Shown here piece after piece: positions 425 through 52,877 of a DNA stretch of 64,000 nucleotides. Location: NCBI RefSeq assembly GCF_009914755.1, contig NC_060947.1; one strand, written 5' to 3'. The notes under the pieces were generated by a model. The model worked only from the letters and a program-made list of their open reading frames with translations. It did no database searches and had not been told where the DNA came from. Origin of the DNA: the human T2T-CHM13v2.0 reference genome, Homo sapiens. A program made the translations under genes and the position numbers. Every line of letters begins with the position of its first letter. The first letter of the stretch is position 1.

Positions 425-1041
<617 letters not shown>

Positions 1042-2140: not shown

Positions 2141-4131
2141 TTTAATTAAAGAGTTTGAATTAGTCCTCAAAAATGGAGTTAGGGGAGAGAAGATATAGGG
2201 CACATAAAAATGTGTTGACTTGAACAACATATTTTGGGGGGGGACAAGGGAGGGGTGACAGTTAAGTAGGAATCAAAGGAGAAGGGGAGGAAAATGAATT
2301 ATATCTAAGGATAAAGCTATTAAAGCTCTGTTTTTACAGAGAGGCACACAGCCAAGAAGGGGTCAAAAAACCTCCAGGCTAAGTTGCCCAAAGCTATGAA
2401 ACCTTCCATTTCTAGAAAAATAAATGAAGAATGAAGAAAATTATTTGAAATTTTTTCCAGTAATATTTGATTTCCTAAACATGAAAAAAATGTGGTCAAT
2501 GTTAGAGTATTCTTCAGTACTTAAGTCTTTTAGTATGTTTTTCAAATATGCGTTTATACCAACGGCATTTTATTCTTGATAAATAAAAGCATTAACAAGC
2601 CAAAAAAAGGTCCTTCCAAGACATGTACTCCAAAAGTCCCTCTTAAAGTGAATGTATGCCTTCCTTTTAAGGGAGCTGCAGCAAATGAGTCATCAATTCA
2701 CAAAGACACCAATGGATGCAATTTCCTGCTCTTGAGGGACTCATGATTATATGGAATGATCTATCCCACCCATCTTGGGGGGATAAAAAGGACTTTCGTT
2801 CACATATGACATGACCTGAACTTTACCAGCCCTGCAAGGTTCAGGAGAACAGCACACAGCATATATGAAATTATAGGTTTGGGTCTTTGATCATTGAGTC
2901 TCTAAAAAGTCAAATGTCTGTCATGCTAACAATTATGTAATTATCAGGTGAGTTGCTATATTACTCAGAATACTAAGGCTTAGATAAGGAACTGGAAGCT
3001 TTCACTATTAATTGTATTTTTCTGCCACTTACTCATAAATTCCTTAACTTATAAGCCTTCACAGTCTTCCCTTTTAAAACCTCCCTAGAGAGACATGTTC
3101 AAACATTTGTTGAATACTGATCTTGTATACCACAAGCTGTCATTGCTTCTGACAGGTAAACCTTCCAGGACATTCCTTTGCCAAAATTATCTAAGCAATT
3201 TTTCCTTCACTGTTACCTTTTGTTCATTATCATTGACATAATAAAATGATTTCAGAGCCCTCCAATGGGTGGTATGGATTCTTTGAAACATTGCTTCCTT
3301 GTATCAAATGTGTCTTCCTTAATGCCAAGGGGATACTATAATAAATAATTCAGCTACATTTGAGCTAGGCTATGTTCTGGGTCAGCCTTTTATCTGCGTA
3401 AAAGAATCATAATTCCATGAAAGCCTGCAGAAAATCTACCAAGAAATTTGACCATAGAAAAATCTTGCTCGAGAATATCCAAAGTTGCCAATTCCTGCAG
3501 CCAGAAAAGGTATTAGGTTCATCAGAATCTCATCAGACATGCAATATAGATATATTTCACTTACTATACAGAGCACTAGAATATGCAGCAAGAGAAAGAC
3601 AGAGAATGAAACGGCAAGGCCCATGGGCCATATTGGTTTATGACTGCCCTGCTCCTTACTCTTCACTCCTGCCAGAAGCTTCTATTCAATCCTCTTTGCC
3701 AGACTCTGGCCTGGCAAGCTTGAGCATTAGATCCTGGCTTCAAAAATAATAATCAAAGTAAAGCGCTGACAAATTAGATATTGGGTTATTTCTTGTTCTT
3801 GTTATTGCTCATACTTGATTGAATTCCACATCTGAGTCTTTGAATCTTTTACCCAGATACACTTGCTACTGCCTGTCCAACACACACTGAACACTGACCT
3901 TCAGTTCTCCTCCAAAGCTCTGATCTGTCCTATTCTCTCCATTTTTTACATTTTCCATTTCTCTGACACAAACAATAGTCCAGGTAGATACCTAGAAGTA
4001 TTGTGCTCTGACCTCAGGCCTAGACACTCTTGTACCCATCAAGCTGTCTCAGATTCCTTCTTCACTCTCTGTGCCTTCTGTCTATACTCTCATTTTGAAT
4101 GACCTCACAGTGTAGACATGTTTATTATCTT

Positions 4132-4378
4132 AATGGTTAAGAGCATGGACTTAGGAGTAGGGCTGGCTGTGTTCAAAACCCAACTCTGTTCTTACTAGCT
4201 GTGCTATCTGGGGCAAATTACTTAATCACTTTGAGCCTCAAATTTCTCTTCTATAAAATGGGAATAATAATAAGACCTCTCACATAGAGCAGCTGTGAGG
4301 ATTCAATGAACTCGTATGTGTAAATACTTATCACAGTGTCTGACACATACTTAGCACCCAAAAAATGTTAAGCTATTA
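4132..4378 (+). mobile_element. MIR SINE, near full length
   Basis: tggttaagagcatggac...gggcaaattacttaatcactttgagcctcaaatttctcttctataaaatgggaataataa...gtgaggattcaatga. Confidence 0.9.
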
Positions 4379-5640: not shown

Positions 5641-5712
5641 CTTCTCTGCTCATTTGTATAAGACGTCTAATAGCACAAATTATCCAATACTAATGATTTT
5701 GTACCTCTGCAC

Positions 5713-6022
5713 TTCTTTTATTATTTATGTTTATTTTTACAGACAAGGCCTCATTCTGTTGCCCAGGCTAGAGTGCAGTGGTGTAATCATGGCTCACCGC
5801 AACCTCGAATTCCTGGGTTCAAGCAATCCTCTGGCCTCAGCCTCCCTTGTGGCTAGGACTACAGGTGCATGCCACTACACCTGGCTATTTAAAAAAAAAA
5901 AATTGTAGAGACAGGGTCTCCCTATGTTTCCCAGGCTGGTCTTGAACTCCTCGGCTTAAGCGATCCTCCTGTCTCAGTCTCCCAAAGTGGTGGGATTACA
6001 GGCATGAGCCACTGTGCCCAAC
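5713..6022 (-). mobile_element. Alu (J-type), antisense
   Basis: Diverged reverse-complement Alu with J-like features (atcatggctcac, ctccctatgtttcccagg). Confidence 0.92.
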
Positions 6023-6300: not shown

Positions 6301-6811
6301 GTTGAAGGCCTTTTGATCCTAGTTTTTGCTAATCAGTTTTAATATGGAAGTATGTCATGTAACATTGTTTGGCCTCTTAGCCATTTTGGTCACACAGTTT
6401 TCTTCTCTATGAATGAGAATAACCAAGTAGCATCATTGTTAGAAAAGAAAAGGACCATTGTCTGCTGATGATTAACTTTTTTCTCAATTAATAAATGACA
6501 AGAGGGTGATCCTGGACAAAACCAATGTCGAGGGCCAAGAATAATAAACTCTTTAGTCTTTAATCATGCCTGTTGATCATTCATGTGGGCCAAAGCTCTT
6601 AAATATTTAATTATACATGGTTATAGTCACTGGAAGTCCTTTTTTGCTTTATTGAGTTTTACACTTGTTTTCTTAACTAAATGTTCAATTCTTGATACAG
6701 ATCTTTAACTAGTATTTCTCTCTTACATGCTTCAAAGTACCAAACCTACTTAGTAAATGTGATGAATGGGCTGATTAAGTGTATTCTGAGTGATCTAAAC
6801 TTTGTCTATAG

Positions 6812-7026
6812 CAGGATTTCTCAATCTTGTCACTACTGACATTTTGGGCTTGATAATTCTTTGTCGTTGTGGGGGCTGTCCTGTGCATTGTAGACCGTTT
6901 AGCAGTACTCCTAGCCTCTGCCCACTACATGTCAATACAACCTTCCTCAGTTATGAAAATCAGAAATGTCTCCAGACATTGCCAGATGTCCCCAGGGGTC
7001 AAAATTGCTCCTGGTGACAAGCACTG
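6812..7026 (-). mobile_element. MER20 (hAT-Charlie DNA transposon), full length
   Basis: caggatttctcaatcttgtcactactgacattttggg...tgtctccagacattgccagatgtcccc...cactg; degenerate 8-bp TSD gtctatag/ctctacag. Confidence 0.9.
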
Positions 7027-7263
7027 CTCTACAGTATAGATATAAAAAACTCAGTCTTCCTGGAAATGATTTCAACACTTAAGCTGCTCAATGTAGGGAA
7101 ATTCAAAATAGAAGGACAAGTATTTTAATCTTGAAAACCTTCCAAGATTATACCAAATGTGACTAGAAGGTCAACAGAATGGCTGTTCTTACACCATAGG
7201 AATTGACAAAAGTTAGGTTTCTTCTATTTCCATGCTTAGAGAGTCAGCTAAAAGCCCCTAGAC

Positions 7264-7420
7264 CAGTGCTTCACAAACTTTACAGTATGCACAAATCACC
7301 TGGGAACTTTGTTAAAAAGCAATTCATTAGCCTGGGGTAGGACTCAAGATTCCAATTTCAATCGAGTTCCTTATTGGTGTTGCCACTATTGGTCTGTGGA
7401 CCGCAGCTGGCATACCAAAG
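7264..7420. mobile_element. MER5A-like hAT MITE
   Basis: cagtgcttcacaaacttt...aatcacctgggaactttgttaaaa...ggtctgtggacc. Confidence 0.75.
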
Positions 7421-8069
7421 CCCTTGCCTAGACAATAGATCTTTCTAATTAGCTTGGTAGCCTCTAATAGGTAAAGAGAAACTAGTTATCTTGAGCTCAC
7501 TGTCTCCATGAGAAAGGAACCAAAGCTGAGTAGAGCCAGTCAGTAGGACTGTTTTTAATTAATTGCCTCATTCTTTTTACATGGTCAACACCTTTGAACC
7601 TATTTGAACAGTGGTTCATTGCCCTCACACTCTACTCTTAATGAGGTTACTTGTTTCACCTATTCAATGAATTGTGCTATATAACATACTTGCTACTCAG
7701 AGAGATGTCTGACAGGGCATTTTCTTCAAGTATTCAAATAATTAACCTCTTAAATGAAGAGGGCCCTCACTGTTGGACCCATTTCCTATTTATCTCATTT
7801 TTTAAAAAGGAAATAAACTTAGGAATGTCTCAACGACATATATATGGATATACACATATGTTTTAGCCTATGCAAATAGGTTGAATCTCAGCCTATGCAA
7901 ATAACATATGGAGGAACACGATGTATGGTGAACACGAAATACTGCTGATTTTCTGTTTTGAACACTTACTTGTATTCAGCTAACTCTCAATTAAGTGTGG
8001 TAAGAAAGGATGGAAATGGTATGGAAATTGAACTGCCACATATTATTGGTCAATGATATGCTTCAAAAG

Positions 8070-8146
8070 CAGGAGGGAGGGAGGGAGGGAGGGAGAGAAG
8101 GGAAGAGAAGGGAAGGGAGGGAAGGAAGGAGAGGAAAGAAGGAAAG
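8070..8146 (+). repeat. Purine-rich (GGGA)n/(GGAA)n simple repeat
   Basis: Directly visible; includes five GGG runs with 1-nt spacers. Confidence 0.9.
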
Positions 8147-8265
8147 ACCATAGACCATAGCAACACAGACTGGTTAAAACCATCTCTCCGAGTTCAAAAG
8201 TTTAATTCATTTTAAAAGGCATCTGTCTAGCATCTAACAGAGGCTATAAAACACAAGTATTTTTA

Positions 8266-8370
8266 CAGCTGAAGCAACTAAACTAGTGTGTGTATAGTCA
8301 ACAGTACACAATGTATTTGAATACTGCCAATTTTTATGTGACCACTGAGCTGCCAGTGGCAGCAGTCTAC
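8266..8370 (+). repeat. Inverted repeat arm 1 (pairs with 10168-10272)
   Basis: 88/105 identical, ungapped, to the reverse complement of 10168-10272 (hand alignment). Confidence 0.93.
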
Positions 8371-9479
8371 TCAAGTGAGGGCAGAAGGAATCCACTGGAA
8401 CTCATATCGATGTATTAGAAAATGATAAACAGGCAGTGTAGAAAAAATAATTAAGTTTAAAACATTTGCAGGAAGCCCACAGAAATTATCTAGCACACAG
8501 CAAAATTCCACTTGTGTAATCAGAGATTCCAAACAAGATAGTATATTCCTAGCCACCACCTACCAACAACCAACCCCTCACTCCTCCTTCTCAGAACCAC
8601 CTTCATATTTTCATTATTTCTGGGTCAAAACAACCTGTTGATTGACAATACTTCATAATCCCACTACAAATCTCACTTCACTGCAGGCTGCTTAAAAGAG
8701 ATAATTCATATAATGCTGTTGTTTGAAAAAGCGACAAATCATTCTAATTCAACAAATATGTATTGAGTGCCAGCTATGGGCAAAGCACTGGGTTAGGCAT
8801 CCTTACTAGTGGACTGACTGACCGCTGCCAGAAGGATATCTACCACCATCCTGGAGCATTAAAACAGCATTTTTGGGAAGAGGGAGATAGCTGTGCATTT
8901 TTATGGCTGCAAATTCCTGCATTTGGTAGAGAAATGGCACAACTGGGTCATAAAATGCAAGGTATAACTTTTAATAAGTAGTTCCTGTACGTTGAACTTT
9001 TGACAACCAGGTCAGTAAAGTGAGAAATTAGACATGACGCATACAAAAATGCTAACTACTATCTCGGGTCATATAGTAGGGAGAAAACGTGTTGATTTCC
9101 AGTAAATTACCATGGTAACTTGTATAGATTTTAGTGTTGAGAATTACATTTGCCATCTGTGGGAAATATATTATCTTTTTGTATCTAATTTTAGGGCATG
9201 TGTTCTATTTTTAGCATGTGTTCTATGAAAAATAATAAATTGGGAGGCCAATTTGGATAAATTAAAAGTGGATATTAAAATGCTATAAAAATAGAATTTA
9301 TTTTTAATTCAAAAAGAAAATCCAGTAGTACATTTAGGAAAGCACACAAAGGTCATTTTTAAAACCACCTCAAAATTGTTACCATTAAGCGAAATTTGAT
9401 ATGAATGAGAATTGACTAAAAAGTGAGAAATTCTGAACTGTGATAAAAAAAAATGGACAGTTACCTGAGAGTATTTTGC

Positions 9480-9600
9480 TTTTGACTCTTTAGCTTTGTG
9501 TGACCTAGAGCCAATCTCTTTGTGTCATTGTTCTTCAGTTTTATCATTTGTAAACTAATTGCCCCTAGCCGCACTGTGGGAATCTTGAAAGAGCATATAT
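9480..9600 (+). mobile_element. Degenerate MIR core
   Basis: tagctttgtgtgacctagagccaatctctt...cttcagttttatcatttgtaaa. Confidence 0.55.
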
Positions 9601-10167
9601 GATACTGGGTGACTAATAATATACATTAGACCATTTGTCAGATTTTACAGATTCTCTGAGTTTTTACACATTGTGCCTCAATTTTGCCAATTTTGAAAGT
9701 GAGATATGGTGGTTGCTCTTCCTAGGGATTTTCTTATGCCTTAAGTGTTTGAAAAGTTGACTCAGATCTTTAGATGGCAAGTTTCTGTAACTGCAAAGTA
9801 GAAATTACAATTCCTTACGACATGCAACTGCAGTTCAAAGTACCGACTTACAATGGTTGCCAAATTCATGCAAACTAAAGTGGAAGAGGCCATTTTCAAA
9901 GCCTGAAAGTATTAAATATAAATTACCTGACTTAAATCAGCTTAGAATTATAATTCTACTCTGTATGTGATGTAAAATGAATTTGACTTAAAAATTTATT
10001 TATACCACCTCACAATTTCAAGGTAATGACTCACAACTGCTTGGGTCCATTTCTAATTCTCCCCAAACAAATATGTCTGTAACATTTAAATACCTTAATG
10101 TTGAAAGCAACTTAAAGAAATACATTAAAGATACCGCAATAAAATTCTATTTAGTTAGGCTTCTTCG

Positions 10168-10272
10168 GTAGACTGCTACCACTGGCAATTCAGCAGTCAC
10201 ATAAAAGTTGGCAGTATTAAAATACATTTTCTTCTGTGGGCTGTTCACATACTAGTTTAGTTTCTTCATCTG
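10168..10272 (-). repeat. Inverted repeat arm 2 (pairs with 8266-8370)
   Basis: gtagactgctaccactggcaattcagcagtcacataaaagttggcagtatt...actagtttagtttcttcatctg is the reverse complement of arm 1. Confidence 0.93.
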
Positions 10273-10714
10273 AAAAACAATGCAATTAGTCAAAATGAAA
10301 TTTGAAATTTTTACCTCCTCTAAAATCAGATGATTGACTCCACGTTTTATGTGAATATTCATAAACTGTTGCCAAAACTGATTATTATTTATGAAGAGAA
10401 AAGCTCCACAGTGGTGTTTAAAAAATTCCTGTTAGACTTGCATTGCTGAACCAGGCATCTTTAAATGATAGTTGCATAAACAGATAGGCAAATAAATAAA
10501 TAATTAGGCTAAAGTGGTTACCAAGAGAACTCTTAGCAGAACATAGCTTGCAAACCACACTGGACAAATTCCATTCCAAACTGTCCAGAATAAAAGGCAA
10601 AATATAAGCTATTTTGTAGTACTAGTATTTAAAGCCATAGATCAATTACCTATGTTAAGGCTACATGAAAACCTAATACATTAGAAAGAGATGCATTAAA
10701 TAATTTAGTGAAGT

Positions 10715-10830
10715 ATTAACAGTGGTTACCTCGAGGTGGCATGATTCCATGTGATCTTTAATTTCTTATCATCCTTATGCATTTTTCAAATTCTTTACTA
10801 AAAGCATGTTTTATAGAGTCAGAAGAAAAG
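10715..10830 (+). mobile_element. Old L1 (L1ME-like) 3' fragment
   Basis: ttaacagtggttacctc...atttttcaaattctttactaaaagcatg. Confidence 0.5.
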
Positions 10831-13265
10831 TGAGAAAATAAATCTATTTTGGTATAGCTACTGAATATTTTTGAAAATGCTTATAGGAAACCTATCATTA
10901 CTCTCTGCTATAAAATCAAGTTATTTACACATTTTTCAAGTATATTGAAATCTATTTGCTTGAATATGTACTCTTGCTCCCACTTTGTCTATTTTATAAA
11001 AAAACATTTTAGGGGACACCTTACTTCTACATTATTTTCTCAAGCCACTGCTAGTTTTCATATGCTGAAAATCAATACATACAGTGGGATGATAAGGTAA
11101 TGCTCTATTCTTTGTGAAGCAGAGCTATGTTATGCTATTTTGGTAAAAGATAATTCATTATTGAGGACAAGCCCTTCATGTATACCAGTACAGAGGCCAC
11201 TAAACTATGTGAGCCACAGACTTCTTCTCAAGTTTGTCATGGTTTAAGGAACCATTTACTGCTCCCTTTGGATGAGGCAAGTAATGGTAGGGTCTCCTAT
11301 TGGTAGCTCCCAAAACATGCTCATTTTTTCATAGATTGTTAATGGGGAGGGGGGATTTTTTTTTTAAAGGTTAACAGAGTCTTGAAAGCATCTCTTTACA
11401 AAATGAGAAAGAAAGGCAAATTTACCACTATTTTCCTCAGCATGTTTATGAATTCAGAAGTGTTCATAAACATTCAACATAGAGAATAAATATATTTTTC
11501 TGTTATTCCCACTGGGGGAAATGAACCAACATATGATTTTTGCTTTAATGCTTTGTAACTCTGGAATCACCAAGATTTTGCATGAAACTTGTCTCAAGAG
11601 ATAAACTATTACCAACAAATTTTGCCACACACATTTTCTTCTAATGCTTTCAGTAAGTCAGAAATCCATTAAACCCCTAAAGAAACAATATTAAAATAAT
11701 AACATAAAATTCTGAAGTTTATTAATGTATCCCATTTGTATATTGCAATACAATCAGTTTATATGTGTGTACAATATTTTCTAAATGTAGTTCCATCAAT
11801 TAAATATACTATAAATCATCATACTATATTTGTTTAGAAGAGTTCAATATTTCTGTAGAAAACATGGCTTCTTCTATTGGTTATCTAGGCAGTCCAGATG
11901 TTCTGGGTTCTTTGGCCAATCCAAAGCATTCCCAATGGAAGACCAAATTGTTCTAACTATGACAATATACCCTCTTGAGGAAAATTGCTTTCAGGATAAA
12001 CATCACATCCCTTAACAAGGAGTAAAATGGCAATGCCACCTTCACTCTGACAGTTTTCTCTCAAGAGATGTTTTGTAACATTCCATCTGTGCCTGTCTGT
12101 TTGTATGACATGTTAAGAAGGAAATTCCTAGTAGAGGGAAAGCAATACTTTTCTAAGGTATTTTCTTTTAGGCATCAGTGAAGTTTGACACCTTGATATA
12201 CAATAGCCCTGTCTTCTAAGCTGGTCACCTGAGGCCCTTTTTGTTTGTTATTATAACAGTATCTTCCTTCTTTGTCTGTCTTCTCCCCATCATACTTAAT
12301 CTTATGAGATCTGAGATAAAGGAAGCCCCATCTGAATACTTTGTACCTGTATGTGTGTGCAAACACACATAATGGTCTGTGTACATCTCACATTATAGTC
12401 TTTAGATAGAAATATTTCAAACACTGCCTTTATAATCTAAAGGGGAAAGGTTTTCTGCAATAAAGCTCTGTCTGTGTTAGTAACTTCACAGTATACATTT
12501 TGAAAATATATGGCAATTTTTCCCAAGGGAGAATCATTGTCCTATTGTACTGACCTAACTTTGCGAAACCTGGTTTAATGGGTTCCATGAATCCGCAAAC
12601 AAATATTTATTGAAAAGGTACATGCTATTTGCTTTGAAAATAAAAAAAGATAACATATTCTAGCTGAGAAATCAAAGCATGAGTTTGCCTACCTTCACCT
12701 ATCACATCACACATTCATTTTCCCAGTGCTCCAGACCAAACTACTTGCCAAAATCCTTTGCAGCTACCTTTGCATTGTGTCATTCTGTGTCTGACCCCTG
12801 TCTCTAAAATACTCCTACAGAAACACACACACATACAAATACCCCAACTGAATTTCTCATCTGGCTTATAATTGTGATACTTATAATGTAGCATTTCTTA
12901 TATAAAAGGGGTCTAGCACAGTGACACTTAAGTGCTCAATAAATATCAGCTCTTATTATTATTATTTATTATTATCTGCTTACATGTCTGACTCTGAAAC
13001 TAGACATGAGCACCTTTAACGCAAAAACATATTTCATCCATCACTTTCACTTTATCACTAGAACTCAAAAGCACTGTACCTGGTACAGAGAAGGCACTTA
13101 TAAAACAAATAGAAAATGTATGTATTAGTAAGAAAATTTGAATAGCAGTATCAAAGATGTGAAGCAGTACATGATTGATTTCCAAATGTCAAGTGAATAC
13201 AAACATTCTTAGTTCTGTAAGTCTATACAAGACTGTATTGTCATTAGCTTTGTGAATGAAAAAAA

Positions 13266-23101: not shown

Positions 23102-23477
23102 TCATCATATTTATATACTGTTTTTTTTTCAGTGATTTTCAGTTTTGCAGTAAATGGTACCAAGGAAAATGAGGCAATTGCCTATGTTGCCACGTTTCCA
23201 GGGTCCTCTGGAATAATAAATCCACAAGCAAAACTAGTTTTGCAGGTTTGTAAAGAGAAGTGGTTTATTCAGAATGCCTAACACTCCTCTTGGTTTACCC
23301 TTCTCTCCTTCCCATTAGGGTGAAGCCTGAGCTGCAGCAAAACCCTTTCTTTTTCTTAAGTTTTTAATTGCTGATTTGCCTATTTGTTTCTAACTTTCTT
23401 GCCTATTGATGCAAATTATTATTATTACTATTGCTGCTGTTTTAAAGAAATATAAGGACTTTGCCATTGTCGGAACT

Positions 23478-23700
23478 ACTGTTGAATGAGCACCAAGCAT
23501 AGTGCTAGGCATTCTTAGAGTCATTCTTGCTAACCCTCACAAACATCCTGAGGTCAATATTGTAATCTCCATTTTACTGATAAGGCAACTGAGACTTTCA
23601 GAGGTTAAATAACTTACTCAAGAAGATAACACAAATACTGTAAGTGTCCAAGATGGGATTTGAAAATAAGTCTATTCCCAAAGCCTTTATCTTATCGGAT
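23478..23700 (-). mobile_element. MIR SINE
   Basis: ctccattttactgataaggcaactgagactttcagaggttaaataacttactcaag. Confidence 0.85.
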
Positions 23701-30654: not shown

Positions 30655-31158
<504 letters not shown>

Positions 31159-34085: not shown

Positions 34086-34506
<421 letters not shown>

Positions 34507-48400: not shown

Positions 48401-48948
48401 GAGATCCATTTTTGTGAAAATAATGCTAGTAATAATTATCAACGAGGTTGACCATTTGATGCATAAACATATATCCATATCCATTCTAAAAAACATTTAA
48501 AAGTTTTCTCTTTGGAAACATTTTTATTCTTCATTCTTCAGTCTAAAATTATATTGATTTTCTAATATTAAAAACAATAAGTTAATAGCACCCCATAATT
48601 CTTATTAAATATTTATGACATCAAAATTAATATTATATATGAAGATAGTTCTTGAATTCTATGTATACCTGTTTGCGAATATAGGTCTTGGGGTAAACAT
48701 ATTAGAAAAGTTACGAGAACAAATATATTTAGGAAAATAGCATCCTGGTCAATATTTATTATGTATATCTCTCTCTCTGATATAAATATATACATGTATA
48801 TATATATCTACTGTATATATACATATATATTCCTTATAATTTAGTTATATTTAGTTTAGATACCCAGCATTGAAATCTATAAATGTAATTATGAGTTGGT
48901 TTGGGGAATCAAGTAGTAGCTACAAAGATGAAAATGTCCCTTAAAGAG

Positions 48949-49273
<325 letters not shown>

Positions 49274-51254: not shown

Positions 51255-51678
51255 TACTTCATTCACTCATTAATGCCAGGCCTTGTTCCAGGTGCTGGGA
51301 ACATATTGGAGAATCACATAGTCAATATTCCTGATCCATGGGGTCTTACTTTCTGGTAGAGTATGAGAAAAAAGGCAAGTCCCTTAATCAGTGAGAAAAT
51401 TTCAGACAGTGATACATGCAATGACAGTATAAAATAGGAAGATGTGATAGGAAATAACTACCTGGGGAAGTTAATTTTGCATAGTTATTACTGAAAGCTA
51501 CTTCCAAGAGGTGAAATTATGGCTGGACGTAGAATCAAGAGAAGCGGACAACCAGGGAAAGATCTGGCATTAATTGCCATTCCATCCAAAGAACTGATCT
51601 TGAGGCCAGGAATGTGGCCTTAAAGACTTTGAGTCAAGAATGAGGTGGATGTATTTCAGGAAGAAAAGGAAGGCCATT
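51255..51678 (-). mobile_element. L2 LINE fragment (host of the Alu at 51679)
   Basis: ttcattcactcattaatgccaggccttgttccaggtgctggga...ccatggggtcttactttctggt. Confidence 0.7.
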
Positions 51679-51972
51679 GGCTGGGCACGGTGGCTCACGC
51701 CTGTAATCCCAGCACTTTAGGAGGCTGAGGTGGTTGGATCATGAGGTCAGGAATTCGAGACCAGCCTGACCAACATGGTGAAACCCCGTCTCTACTAAAA
51801 ATATAAAAATTAGCCAGGCATGGTGGCACGCACCTGTAATCCCAGCTACTCAGGAGGGTGAGGCAGGAGAATCGCTTGAACTATTAGGGAGGCGGAGGTT
51901 GCAGTGAGCTGAGATCACGCCATTGCACTCCAGCCTGGGGGACAGAGTGAGACTCCATCTCAAAAAAAAGAA
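51679..51972 (+). mobile_element. AluS with private gaacTATTAggga variant
   Basis: Perfect 18-bp TSD aagaaaaggaaggccatt (51661-51678, 51973-51990). Confidence 0.97.
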
Positions 51973-52046
51973 AAGAAAAGGAAGGCCATTATTGTTGGGA
52001 CATTGTGAATACAGGCTTAAAATTTATATGTATATATAAACTGTAA

Positions 52047-52085
<39 letters not shown>

Positions 52086-52216
52086 ACATAGCACATAGTA
52101 AGTACTAAATGCTGAAAGAGTAGGTAATATTACTGAAGGCAGGTTGGGGATCAGATTAAAAATTTTGCTTGTTTTAATGTTAAATGAAAATATGTGTAGT
52201 ATCTTTTGATTCCACC

Positions 52217-52521
<305 letters not shown>

Positions 52522-52877
52522 ACCTTTTTTTCTTTTTTCAAAATATATTTGATTTGGAGTTTATCACTGATCTCCAGGACGTCTTTAATAGGTTGCAATT
52601 AAGAGCATTTATCTTTACTTCTCTAAGTATTTCATCAAATCAGCTGTAAGAAAAGCTAAACCAAACCAAAATCTACACTCAGTTTAAGGACCTGATATGC
52701 TGTATCAGAGCAATGGGCTACTCAAGGTCTATATGGTTTTGGGGGGTAGGGGTAGCAGATTAAAGATGGGCATGAAATGCCTGTGTTTGAACCAATGCAA
52801 TAGTCTCCTCTCACTTCTCCAAGATTTGCAAAAAAAGAGCTGGGAAGGAAGACAGGTGCAAAGATGCCTGGGAGAAA

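What the first reader, a model, noticed from the sequence alone, without database searches (positions are those of the whole stretch)
8266..10272. Ungapped 105-bp inverted repeat pair 1.8 kb apart in IL1RAPL1 intron 8: candidate long-range RNA duplex
Seen: 8266-8370 matches the reverse complement of 10168-10272 at 88/105 positions with no indel. Of the 17 mismatches, 5 are G.U pairs on the sense pre-mRNA, giving 93/105 paired, and 4 are A-C pairs, which ADAR favours. The G.U count shows no real strand bias (5 sense vs 4 antisense). The arms are not Alu, L1, MIR or any repeat I recognise, and the spacer is ordinary AT-rich DNA holding a badly decayed MIR. Inference: either a constrained ~100-bp intronic dsRNA stem in a neuronal gene (looping, editing substrate, or control of splicing/polyadenylation before the TM exon), or the long TIRs of an unnamed DNA transposon (ends read TA|CAG...CTG|AA), or a local inverted duplication.
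Basis: partly seen in the sequence, partly recalled or inferred. Interest (0 to 1): 0.8.

Follow-up and report, generated by a model that had tools for sequence, protein, structure and literature searches.

The report
Old local inverted duplicate in intron
Two 105-115-base stretches 1.8 kb apart in an intron of the human gene IL1RAPL1 are reverse-complement copies of each other, found nowhere else in the genome, and look like the decayed relic of an old local copying accident rather than a jumping gene or a selected RNA structure.

Summary
8266-8370 matches the reverse complement of 10168-10272 at 88 of 105 places without a gap. The match stretches to 115 nt at 83% (8261-8375 / 10163-10277) and stops sharply at all four edges.

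Genome-wide, two 33-place patterns taken from the arms hit only the two arms at up to 3 mismatches. All 32 looser near-matches that I examined resemble the arms only over the pattern itself. So the arms are not copies of a repeat family. Only their outer ~19-22 nt carry a common MIR-like motif (3779 genome matches against 139 for the control).

Nothing supports a DNA transposon: no symmetric target-site duplication, no Pfam match above cut-off, no Rfam match.

The 17 mismatches look neutral. There are 5 G.U and 4 A.C pairs, one CpG has decayed differently in the two arms, and K2P distance is 0.18.

Best reading: an old, single, local inverted duplication, made by a template switch or by a small inversion with staggered breaks. 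The pre-mRNA could fold it into a ~105-bp imperfect duplex (-137 kcal/mol). Function is unshown. No other species' genomes were available, so age and constraint are untested. Interest is low.

The parts
8261..8375 (.). Left arm of the inverted duplicate (ungapped core 8266-8370)
   Evidence: 88 of 105 identical to the reverse complement of the right arm; 115 nt at 83%; blastn E 7e-27.
10163..10277 (.). Right arm of the inverted duplicate (ungapped core 10168-10272)
   Evidence: The only other genome place matching the arm patterns at up to 3 mismatches.
8376..10162 (.). Spacer, 1787 nt, ordinary AT-rich intron sequence (GC 34%)
   Evidence: No further inverted or direct similarity between the two halves. 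Frame 1 of the + strand holds 42 stops. Longest stop-free stretch is 77 aa. No Pfam match above cut-off in the 11 of 23 stop-free stretches that I scanned. No Rfam match. Composition.
8261..8282 (+). MIR-like motif at the outer end of the left arm
   Evidence: Matches positions 115-136 of the MIR-like profile built here, E 0.18.
10256..10278 (-). MIR-like motif at the outer end of the right arm
   Evidence: Profile positions 114-136, E 5e-4, but biased because 29 of the 54 profile members were chosen by this motif. The unbiased count for the 19-mer at up to 2 mismatches is 3779 genome places against 139 for the control.
9486..9591 (-). Decayed MIR-like copy in the spacer (strand is relative to the profile)
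   Evidence: nhmmer E 2.7e-5, profile positions 63-182; Smith-Waterman against shuffles p 0.002.
8754..8807 (+). Second, weak MIR-like piece in the spacer (profile positions 2-55), opposite in orientation to the first
   Evidence: nhmmer E 1.7; Smith-Waterman against shuffles p 0.006; 7 short genome matches to 8735-8800 at 79-91% identity.
8343..8344 (.). CA in the left arm against TG in the right arm read in the same sense: the two decay products of one ancestral CpG
   Evidence: One search lists the mismatches. The inference that the ancestor was CG is mine.

Best explanation
A stretch of about 110 bp of unique intron sequence was copied once, in reverse-complement orientation, to a place about 1.9 kb away. 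Since then both copies have decayed neutrally to 84% identity.

Two known processes give exactly this layout. One is a replication or repair template switch that copies a nearby stretch from the opposite strand. The other is a small inversion whose break at one end was staggered by about 110 nt, so that fill-in left an inverted copy at each end of the inverted segment. I cannot tell these two apart here.

What is shown: the pair exists, it is unique in the genome, it has sharp edges, and it lacks transposon hallmarks. What is inferred: the mechanism, and an age of tens of millions of years, taken from K2P 0.18 between the arms (about 0.09 per copy) and mammalian neutral rates that I recall.

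Consequence: in IL1RAPL1 pre-mRNA the arms can pair into an imperfect duplex of about 105-115 bp that loops out 1.8 kb of intron 8. Such a duplex is long enough to bind ADAR, from established knowledge of inverted Alu pairs. Both arms lie in one intron, 8 kb and 11.5 kb from the flanking exons, so I expect no effect on splicing.
For: - Real and significant: 88 of 105 identical, ungapped; E 7e-27 against 0.17 for the next best match.
- Unique pair: the 33-place middle pattern and the 33-place inner pattern each hit 2 places in 3.1 Gb at up to 3 mismatches, namely the two arms, with 0 control hits.
- Looser patterns give 46 against 19 and 29 against 1 (that control carries CpGs, and my uniform expectation is about 36).
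- I examined 32 near-matches: 28 of the 44 non-arm matches (3 of these were first fetched), plus 1 of the 27 non-arm matches. All align to the arm profile only over the pattern itself, at most 40 profile positions.
- Homology ends sharply at both ends of both arms, with no gapped extension.
- The spacer carries old MIR debris, as expected of pre-existing intron and not of a young element's interior.
- Neutral-looking differences: 9 transitions and 8 transversions; G.U 5 against A.C 4 on the sense strand and 4 against 5 on the antisense strand; a CpG decayed to CA in one arm and TG in the other.
- Known precedents: the four-point template-switch model has event types that create an inverted repeat with or without an inverted spacer (PMC5453318, passages). 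[quoted passage not shown]
Against: - No outgroup genome was available, so I have not shown that one arm is younger than the other, nor that the ancestral state lacked it.
- The published short-range template switches are much smaller. The paper's filters speak of fragments of 10 bp or more within tens of bases (PMC5453318). This case needs a 105-115-nt copy 1.8 kb away.
- The staggered-break precedent is from Drosophila, not mammals.
- A T/A and G/C skew test for inversion of the spacer was uninformative: spacer TA skew -0.043 against a background of 0.026 +/- 0.075.
- The transition:transversion ratio of 9:8 is lower than the roughly 2:1 I recall for neutral human change, though with n = 17 this is not significant.
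- Mismatches bunch at 8288-8309 (8 in 22 nt), which a single uniform decay does not predict.
- The whole-genome DNA search tool is insensitive: one search missed the partner arm. A very old or very small family cannot be fully excluded.
- chrM is not among the 24 contigs.
Confidence: 0.6

Rival explanations
1. The arms are the terminal inverted repeats of a DNA transposon, a non-autonomous copy of about 2 kb that inserted here.
For: Long inverted ends with sharp outer edges that read CAG...CTG. TA lies before the left end. A 7-of-8 direct match, AAACACAA against AAAAACAA, lies near the ends.
Against: - That 7-of-8 match is asymmetric: it sits 9 nt outside the left arm but flush with the right arm. 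It lies in A-rich sequence, and I tried 306 boundary pairs, so it is about chance level. No symmetric target-site duplication of 2-10 nt was found, and the TA is present on one side only.
- There is no other copy of the ends in 3.1 Gb at up to 3 mismatches in 31 or 28 specified bases. A family whose copies are about 8% from consensus would give many.
- No near-match extends beyond the pattern.
- The interior holds old MIR-like debris. It has no Pfam transposase match in the 11 of 23 stop-free stretches tested; the best hits are Daxx at E 0.023 and DUF6525 at E 0.098, both below cut-off.
Confidence: 0.07
2. Whatever its origin, the pair is kept by selection as a long-range RNA duplex in IL1RAPL1 pre-mRNA. 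It would act as an editing substrate, an intron-looping element, or a source of small RNA.
For: The predicted duplex is strong: -136.6 kcal/mol on the sense strand against -49.9 +/- 3.7 for 100 shuffled partners, with 95 arm-to-arm pairs in the minimum-energy fold of 8241-10297. There is no indel in 105-115 nt. The host gene is neuronal (hub table).
Against: - G.U is not favoured over A.C among transition mismatches (5 against 4), and the antisense strand pairs nearly as well at -129.4 kcal/mol.
- A decayed CpG breaks two adjacent pairs, and eight mismatches bunch within 22 nt.
- Both arms lie in one intron with no exon between them, 8 kb and 11.5 kb from the nearest exons (hub table), so exon looping or back-splicing control is not expected.
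- No Rfam family matches.
- A search of papers for IL1RAPL1 with A-to-I, intron and dsRNA listed 10 papers, none of which contained the gene name.
Confidence: 0.08
3. The arms are two separate insertions, in opposite orientation, of one uncharacterised repeat or small-RNA or organelle pseudogene, for example a divergent MIR-type SINE.
For: The outer 19-22 nt of both arms are a high-copy MIR-like motif. A few MIR-like loci align weakly to arm-profile positions 1-40, 1-45 and 1-71 (E 8e-4, 0.03, 0.1). chrM is not in the 24 contigs searched.
Against: - The rest of each arm shows no similarity to the MIR-like profile: local alignment p 0.31 and 0.20; anchored global alignment z -0.05 and 0.15, against z 14.4 and 6.7 for two good MIR copies in the window.
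- The outer and inner flanks are not MIR-like either (p 0.61-0.94).
- By recall, independent copies of so old a family would be about 55-65% alike, not 84% without a gap.
- No parent or sibling copy turned up in the genome, and no Rfam family matches.
Confidence: 0.07

Closest known systems
Inverted repeats created by replication template switching (four-point model, Loytynoja and Goldman 2017, PMC5453318; passages read)
   Same: A nearby stretch is copied in reverse complement. This creates a new inverted repeat, with or without an inverted spacer, that can fold as RNA. No selection is needed.
   Different: The published events are short and local (fragments from 10 bp, switch points within tens of bases). 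This case is 105-115 nt copied across 1.8 kb, and the event itself is not observed because no ancestral sequence is at hand.
Inversion-linked inverted duplications from staggered breaks (Ranz et al. 2007, PMC1885836; passages read)
   Same: Non-repetitive sequence is duplicated in inverted orientation at the two ends of a segment. Reported sizes are 46 bp to about 1.9 kb. [quoted passage not shown] Reported identity is about 88%.
   Different: That work describes large Drosophila inversions. Here the segment is only 1.8 kb, in a mammal, and I could not test whether the spacer is inverted (the skew test was uninformative).
Inverted Alu pairs in introns as dsRNA and ADAR substrates (established knowledge, recalled; the abstract starts listed, such as PMC2533698, speak of Alu-Alu dsRNA)
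   Same: Two inverted copies within a few kb in one intron, about 85% complementary, predicted to form a long imperfect duplex. In this window the other 7 of the 8 inverted pairs of 80 nt or more within 5 kb lie in the hub's masked ~300-bp stretches.
   Different: The arms here are unique sequence, one third the length of an Alu, and no editing data were available.
TIR DNA transposons and MITEs
   Same: Inverted ends with sharp outer edges that begin with CAG.
   Different: No target-site duplication, no family, no transposase trace, and old repeat debris inside.
Genome-wide 'inverted duplicates' of mammals (Chen et al. 2017, PMC5398296; abstract and sections 6 and 12 read)
   Same: The same class of object. 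That census counts 4,315,271 inverted duplicates in human, many of them in non-repetitive sequence, and argues that some expressed, stable ones may act as hairpin RNAs.
   Different: The census allowed spacers of at most 1000 nt, so this pair (1787 nt) falls outside it. Most of its members are far shorter.

Membership tests
TIR DNA transposon | Terminal inverted repeats | tested here: met
   115 nt at 83% complementary.
TIR DNA transposon | Target-site duplication directly flanking both ends | tested here: not met
   A scan of 17 x 18 boundary pairs and lengths of 2-10 nt found only an asymmetric 7-of-8 match in A-rich sequence. TA is present on one side only.
TIR DNA transposon | Other copies of the family in the genome | tested here: not met
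   Two 33-place patterns at up to 3 mismatches hit only the two arms. All 32 looser near-matches examined fail to extend. A very old or tiny family is not excluded.
TIR DNA transposon | Transposase gene or its remains, in autonomous copies | tested here: inconclusive
   I scanned 11 of the 23 stop-free stretches (those of 50 aa or more) against Pfam and found nothing above cut-off. Non-autonomous copies need none.
MIR (CORE-SINE) | Similarity to the family consensus along the element | tested here: not met
   Only 22 profile positions match. The rest of each arm gives z about 0, against z 14.4 and 6.7 for positive controls. The profile was built here from 54 genomic copies, and naming it MIR rests on recall.
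Template-switch product (four-point model) | A stretch that is the exact reverse complement of nearby sequence | tested here: met
   now decayed to 84%.
Template-switch product (four-point model) | Ancestral or sister sequence lacking the copy, explained by one switch event | not testable with these tools
   No non-human vertebrate genome is held.
Inversion with staggered breaks | Segment between the duplicates inverted relative to an outgroup | not testable with these tools
   The strand-skew proxy was uninformative.
ADAR-edited intronic dsRNA | Intramolecular duplex of tens of base pairs in a transcribed region | tested here: met
   In silico only: -136.6 kcal/mol and 95 arm-to-arm pairs in the minimum-energy fold. 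The region lies in intron 8 of IL1RAPL1 (hub table).
ADAR-edited intronic dsRNA | Clusters of A-to-G mismatches in RNA reads | not testable with these tools
   No RNA-seq or editing database is at hand. The paper search listed nothing for this gene.
Known structured RNA family (Rfam) | Match to a covariance model | tested here: not met
   0 matches at E up to 1 in 7800-10800, both strands.

The most novel reading that the evidence does not exclude
The pair is not a passive relic. It would be a maintained long-range duplex of unique (non-Alu) sequence in the pre-mRNA of a neuronal, X-linked intellectual-disability gene, edited by ADAR in brain. Alternatively, it could be a site where the 1.8-kb spacer flips between the arms as a human or primate inversion polymorphism.
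Probability: 0.07. Interest if true: 0.45.

Novelty: new member of a known kind. Interest (0 to 1): 0.17.

Why it matters
If the neutral reading holds, this is one more fossil of a local inverted copying event. It is useful mainly as a clean, datable example that such events can reach about 110 nt across about 2 kb in a mammalian intron, and as a non-Alu place where intronic dsRNA could form. It would matter more only if cross-species data showed constraint or RNA data showed editing. Neither is indicated by anything I could test.

Tried and rejected
- Whole-genome DNA search with the left arm found only the arm itself and missed the partner arm, so that mode is too insensitive for this question. 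I used mismatch-tolerant patterns instead.
- A first attempt to build a MIR profile from the 7 short matches failed, because they share only a motif of about 45 nt. A genome search with the spacer MIR found only that MIR itself.
- Single-sequence nhmmer with the arms found nothing but the partner arm.
- MIR origin of the whole arm is rejected. Rfam gave nothing.
- window.fa carries no soft-masking (0 of 64000 bases in lower case), so NCBI's masking of the arms is unknown to me.
I scanned only stop-free stretches of 50 aa or more.
- Strand-skew test for spacer inversion: uninformative.
I therefore have no background rate beyond this window, where 1 of 8 pairs is of this kind.
- Paper search for editing or dsRNA in IL1RAPL1: none of the 10 listed papers contained the gene name.

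Full report
**Observation**

The window at 8266-8370 matches the reverse complement of 10168-10272 at 88 of 105 places with no indel. The repeat finder extends the pair to 8261-8375 and 10163-10277: 115 nt, 83% complementary, 1787 nt between the arms. One search counts 20 mismatches in those 115 places.

On the sense (+) strand the 17 core mismatches are 5 G.U, 4 A.C and 8 others. So 93 of 105 places pair when G.U is allowed, and the antisense strand has 4 G.U. The ends read TA|CAG ... CTG|AA.

The match is far beyond chance. Arm against arm gives nhmmer E 7e-20 and 8e-21. A sensitive blastn of 6500-9300 against 9300-12000 gives E 7e-27 for the pair and 0.17 for the next best match. Similarity stops abruptly at all four edges, and no gapped extension exists.

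**Is it a repeat family?**

The assembly holding the window (24 contigs, 3.1 Gb, without chrM) can be searched.
- A DNA search with the left arm returned only the arm itself and missed the partner arm. That mode is therefore insensitive.
- Mismatch-tolerant patterns are better. I used a 33-place pattern from the middle of the arm (31 specified bases) and a 33-place pattern from its inner end (28 specified bases). Each hit exactly two places at up to 3 mismatches, namely the two arms, with 0 hits for the reversed control. A family whose copies lie about 8% from consensus, as these arms would, should give many hits.
- Shorter patterns that could catch older families gave 46 against 19 control hits (23 places, up to 3 mismatches) and 29 against 1 (20 places, up to 2 mismatches). 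The control contains CpGs, and my uniform expectation is about 36.
- I examined 32 near-matches: 28 of the 44 non-arm matches (3 of these were first fetched), plus 1 of the 27 non-arm matches. All resemble a profile of the arms only over the pattern itself, at most 40 profile positions.

I conclude that the pair is unique in this genome. A tiny or very old family is not strictly excluded.

**The MIR-like motif**

The outer 19 bases of the right arm (10258-10276) lie within 2 mismatches of 3779 genome places, against 139 for the control. From 29 such places I built a profile and iterated it to 54 copies. By recall, its consensus is that of MIR.

What the profile finds:
- good MIR copies at 4129-4358, 23472-23696 and 431-647;
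- a decayed copy in the spacer at 9486-9591 (E 2.7e-5);
- in the arms, only 22 positions at the outer ends (right arm E 5e-4, biased by my choice of seeds; left arm E 0.18).

The rest of each arm is not MIR-like. Local alignment against shuffles gives p 0.31 and 0.20. Anchored global alignment gives z -0.05 and 0.15, against 14.4 and 6.7 for two good copies. The flanks of the arms are not MIR-like either (p 0.61-0.94).

**Transposon test**

- Inverted ends are present.
- No symmetric target-site duplication of 2-10 nt exists at or near the edges. The best candidate is a 7-of-8 match in A-rich sequence that sits 9 nt outside one arm and flush with the other. TA lies on one side only.
- There are no other copies (see above).
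- Frame 1 of the spacer's + strand has 42 stops, and the longest stop-free stretch is 77 aa. The 11 of 23 stop-free stretches of 50 aa or more have no Pfam match above cut-off.
- The interior carries old MIR-like debris. That suits pre-existing intron sequence, not the body of an element young enough to keep 84% identical ends.
- Rfam finds nothing in 7800-10800.

**Signs of selection for pairing**

There are none.
- Transitions in a stem give G.U or A.C with equal chance. Here the counts are 5 and 4 on the sense strand and 4 and 5 on the antisense strand.
- At 8343-8344 one arm has CA and the other TG. These are the two decay products of a CpG, so the same ancestral site decayed independently in each arm and broke two adjacent pairs (the ancestral state is my inference).
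- Eight mismatches bunch in 8288-8309.
- K2P distance between the arms is 0.184. With recalled mammalian neutral rates, that puts the copying event tens of millions of years back. I did not measure this age.

**What the RNA could do**

The arms co-fold at -136.6 kcal/mol on the sense strand and -129.4 on the antisense strand, against -49.9 +/- 3.7 for 100 shuffled partners. In the minimum-energy fold of 8241-10297, 95 pairs join the two arms.

From established knowledge of inverted Alu pairs, such a duplex could bind ADAR. But both arms lie in intron 8, about 8 kb after exon 8 and 11.5 kb before exon 9 (hub table), with no exon between them. Looping out the spacer should not change splicing.

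**Mechanism**

Two described processes give an inverted copy of unique sequence at a short distance.
- The four-point template-switch model has event types that create an inverted repeat, with or without an inverted spacer. The published events are much shorter and closer (PMC5453318, passages). Flanking inverted repeats of 3 to 75 nt per flank accompany human-chimpanzee microinversions (PMC8755829, passages).
- In Drosophila, 17 of 29 inversions carry inverted duplications of non-repetitive sequence at their ends, 46 bp to about 1.9 kb long. [quoted passage not shown] The authors ascribe this to staggered breaks (PMC1885836, passages).

A strand-skew test for inversion of the spacer was uninformative.

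Inverted duplicates as a class are very common in mammals. A census counts 4,315,271 in human, with spacers limited to 1000 nt, so this pair would not have been counted (PMC5398296, abstract and sections 6 and 12).

**Limits**

- No non-human vertebrate genome, editing database or RNA contact map was available.
- Within this window, the other 7 of the 8 inverted pairs of 80 nt or more within 5 kb fall in the hub's masked stretches of about 300 bp.
- Whether NCBI masked the arms is unknown to me.

**Verdict**

This is a real, genome-unique, old local inverted duplicate. It is most likely a neutral relic (confidence about 0.6). It is a new instance of a known kind and of low interest, unless comparative or RNA data show otherwise.

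Noticed in passing
window 8754-8807 and 9486-9591: Two MIR-like pieces in opposite orientation cover complementary parts of the profile: positions 2-55 (weak, E 1.7, shuffle p 0.006) and 63-182 (E 2.7e-5). This is the pattern expected if an inversion of about 0.8 kb once broke a single MIR near profile position 56-62. It could also be two unrelated fragments.
   Followed up: partly
window 8071-8147: A 77-nt run of pure purines (GGA/GGGA-rich) lies 113 nt upstream of the left arm. By recall, such tracts can stall replication, which might bear on a template switch. This is speculation only.
   Followed up: no
window 8349-8363: A 15-nt palindrome, GCTGCCAGTGGCAGC, lies inside the left arm (read). 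The right arm has it in decayed form. My note gives slightly wrong coordinates.
   Followed up: no
window 30852-31042 / 34250-34440; 48943-49247 / 52221-52527; 51678-51985 / 52215-52522; 846-1013 / 5697-5864: Seven other inverted pairs of 90-191 nt at 73-88% within 5 kb, all in the hub's masked stretches of about 300 bp (presumably Alu pairs). The first pair lies just upstream of exon 10.
   Followed up: no
window 4129-4358 (-), 23472-23696 (+), 431-647 (-): Well-kept MIR-like copies, found with the profile built here (E 3e-43, 8e-27, 4e-22).
   Followed up: no
G000 C2:113962108, C9:71941, C9:42216108, C9:77084013, C9:80526265: The same 23-mer with the same 3 mismatches occurs at five places on two chromosomes, presumably a segmental duplication family. 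It is unrelated to the arms beyond the pattern.
   Followed up: partly
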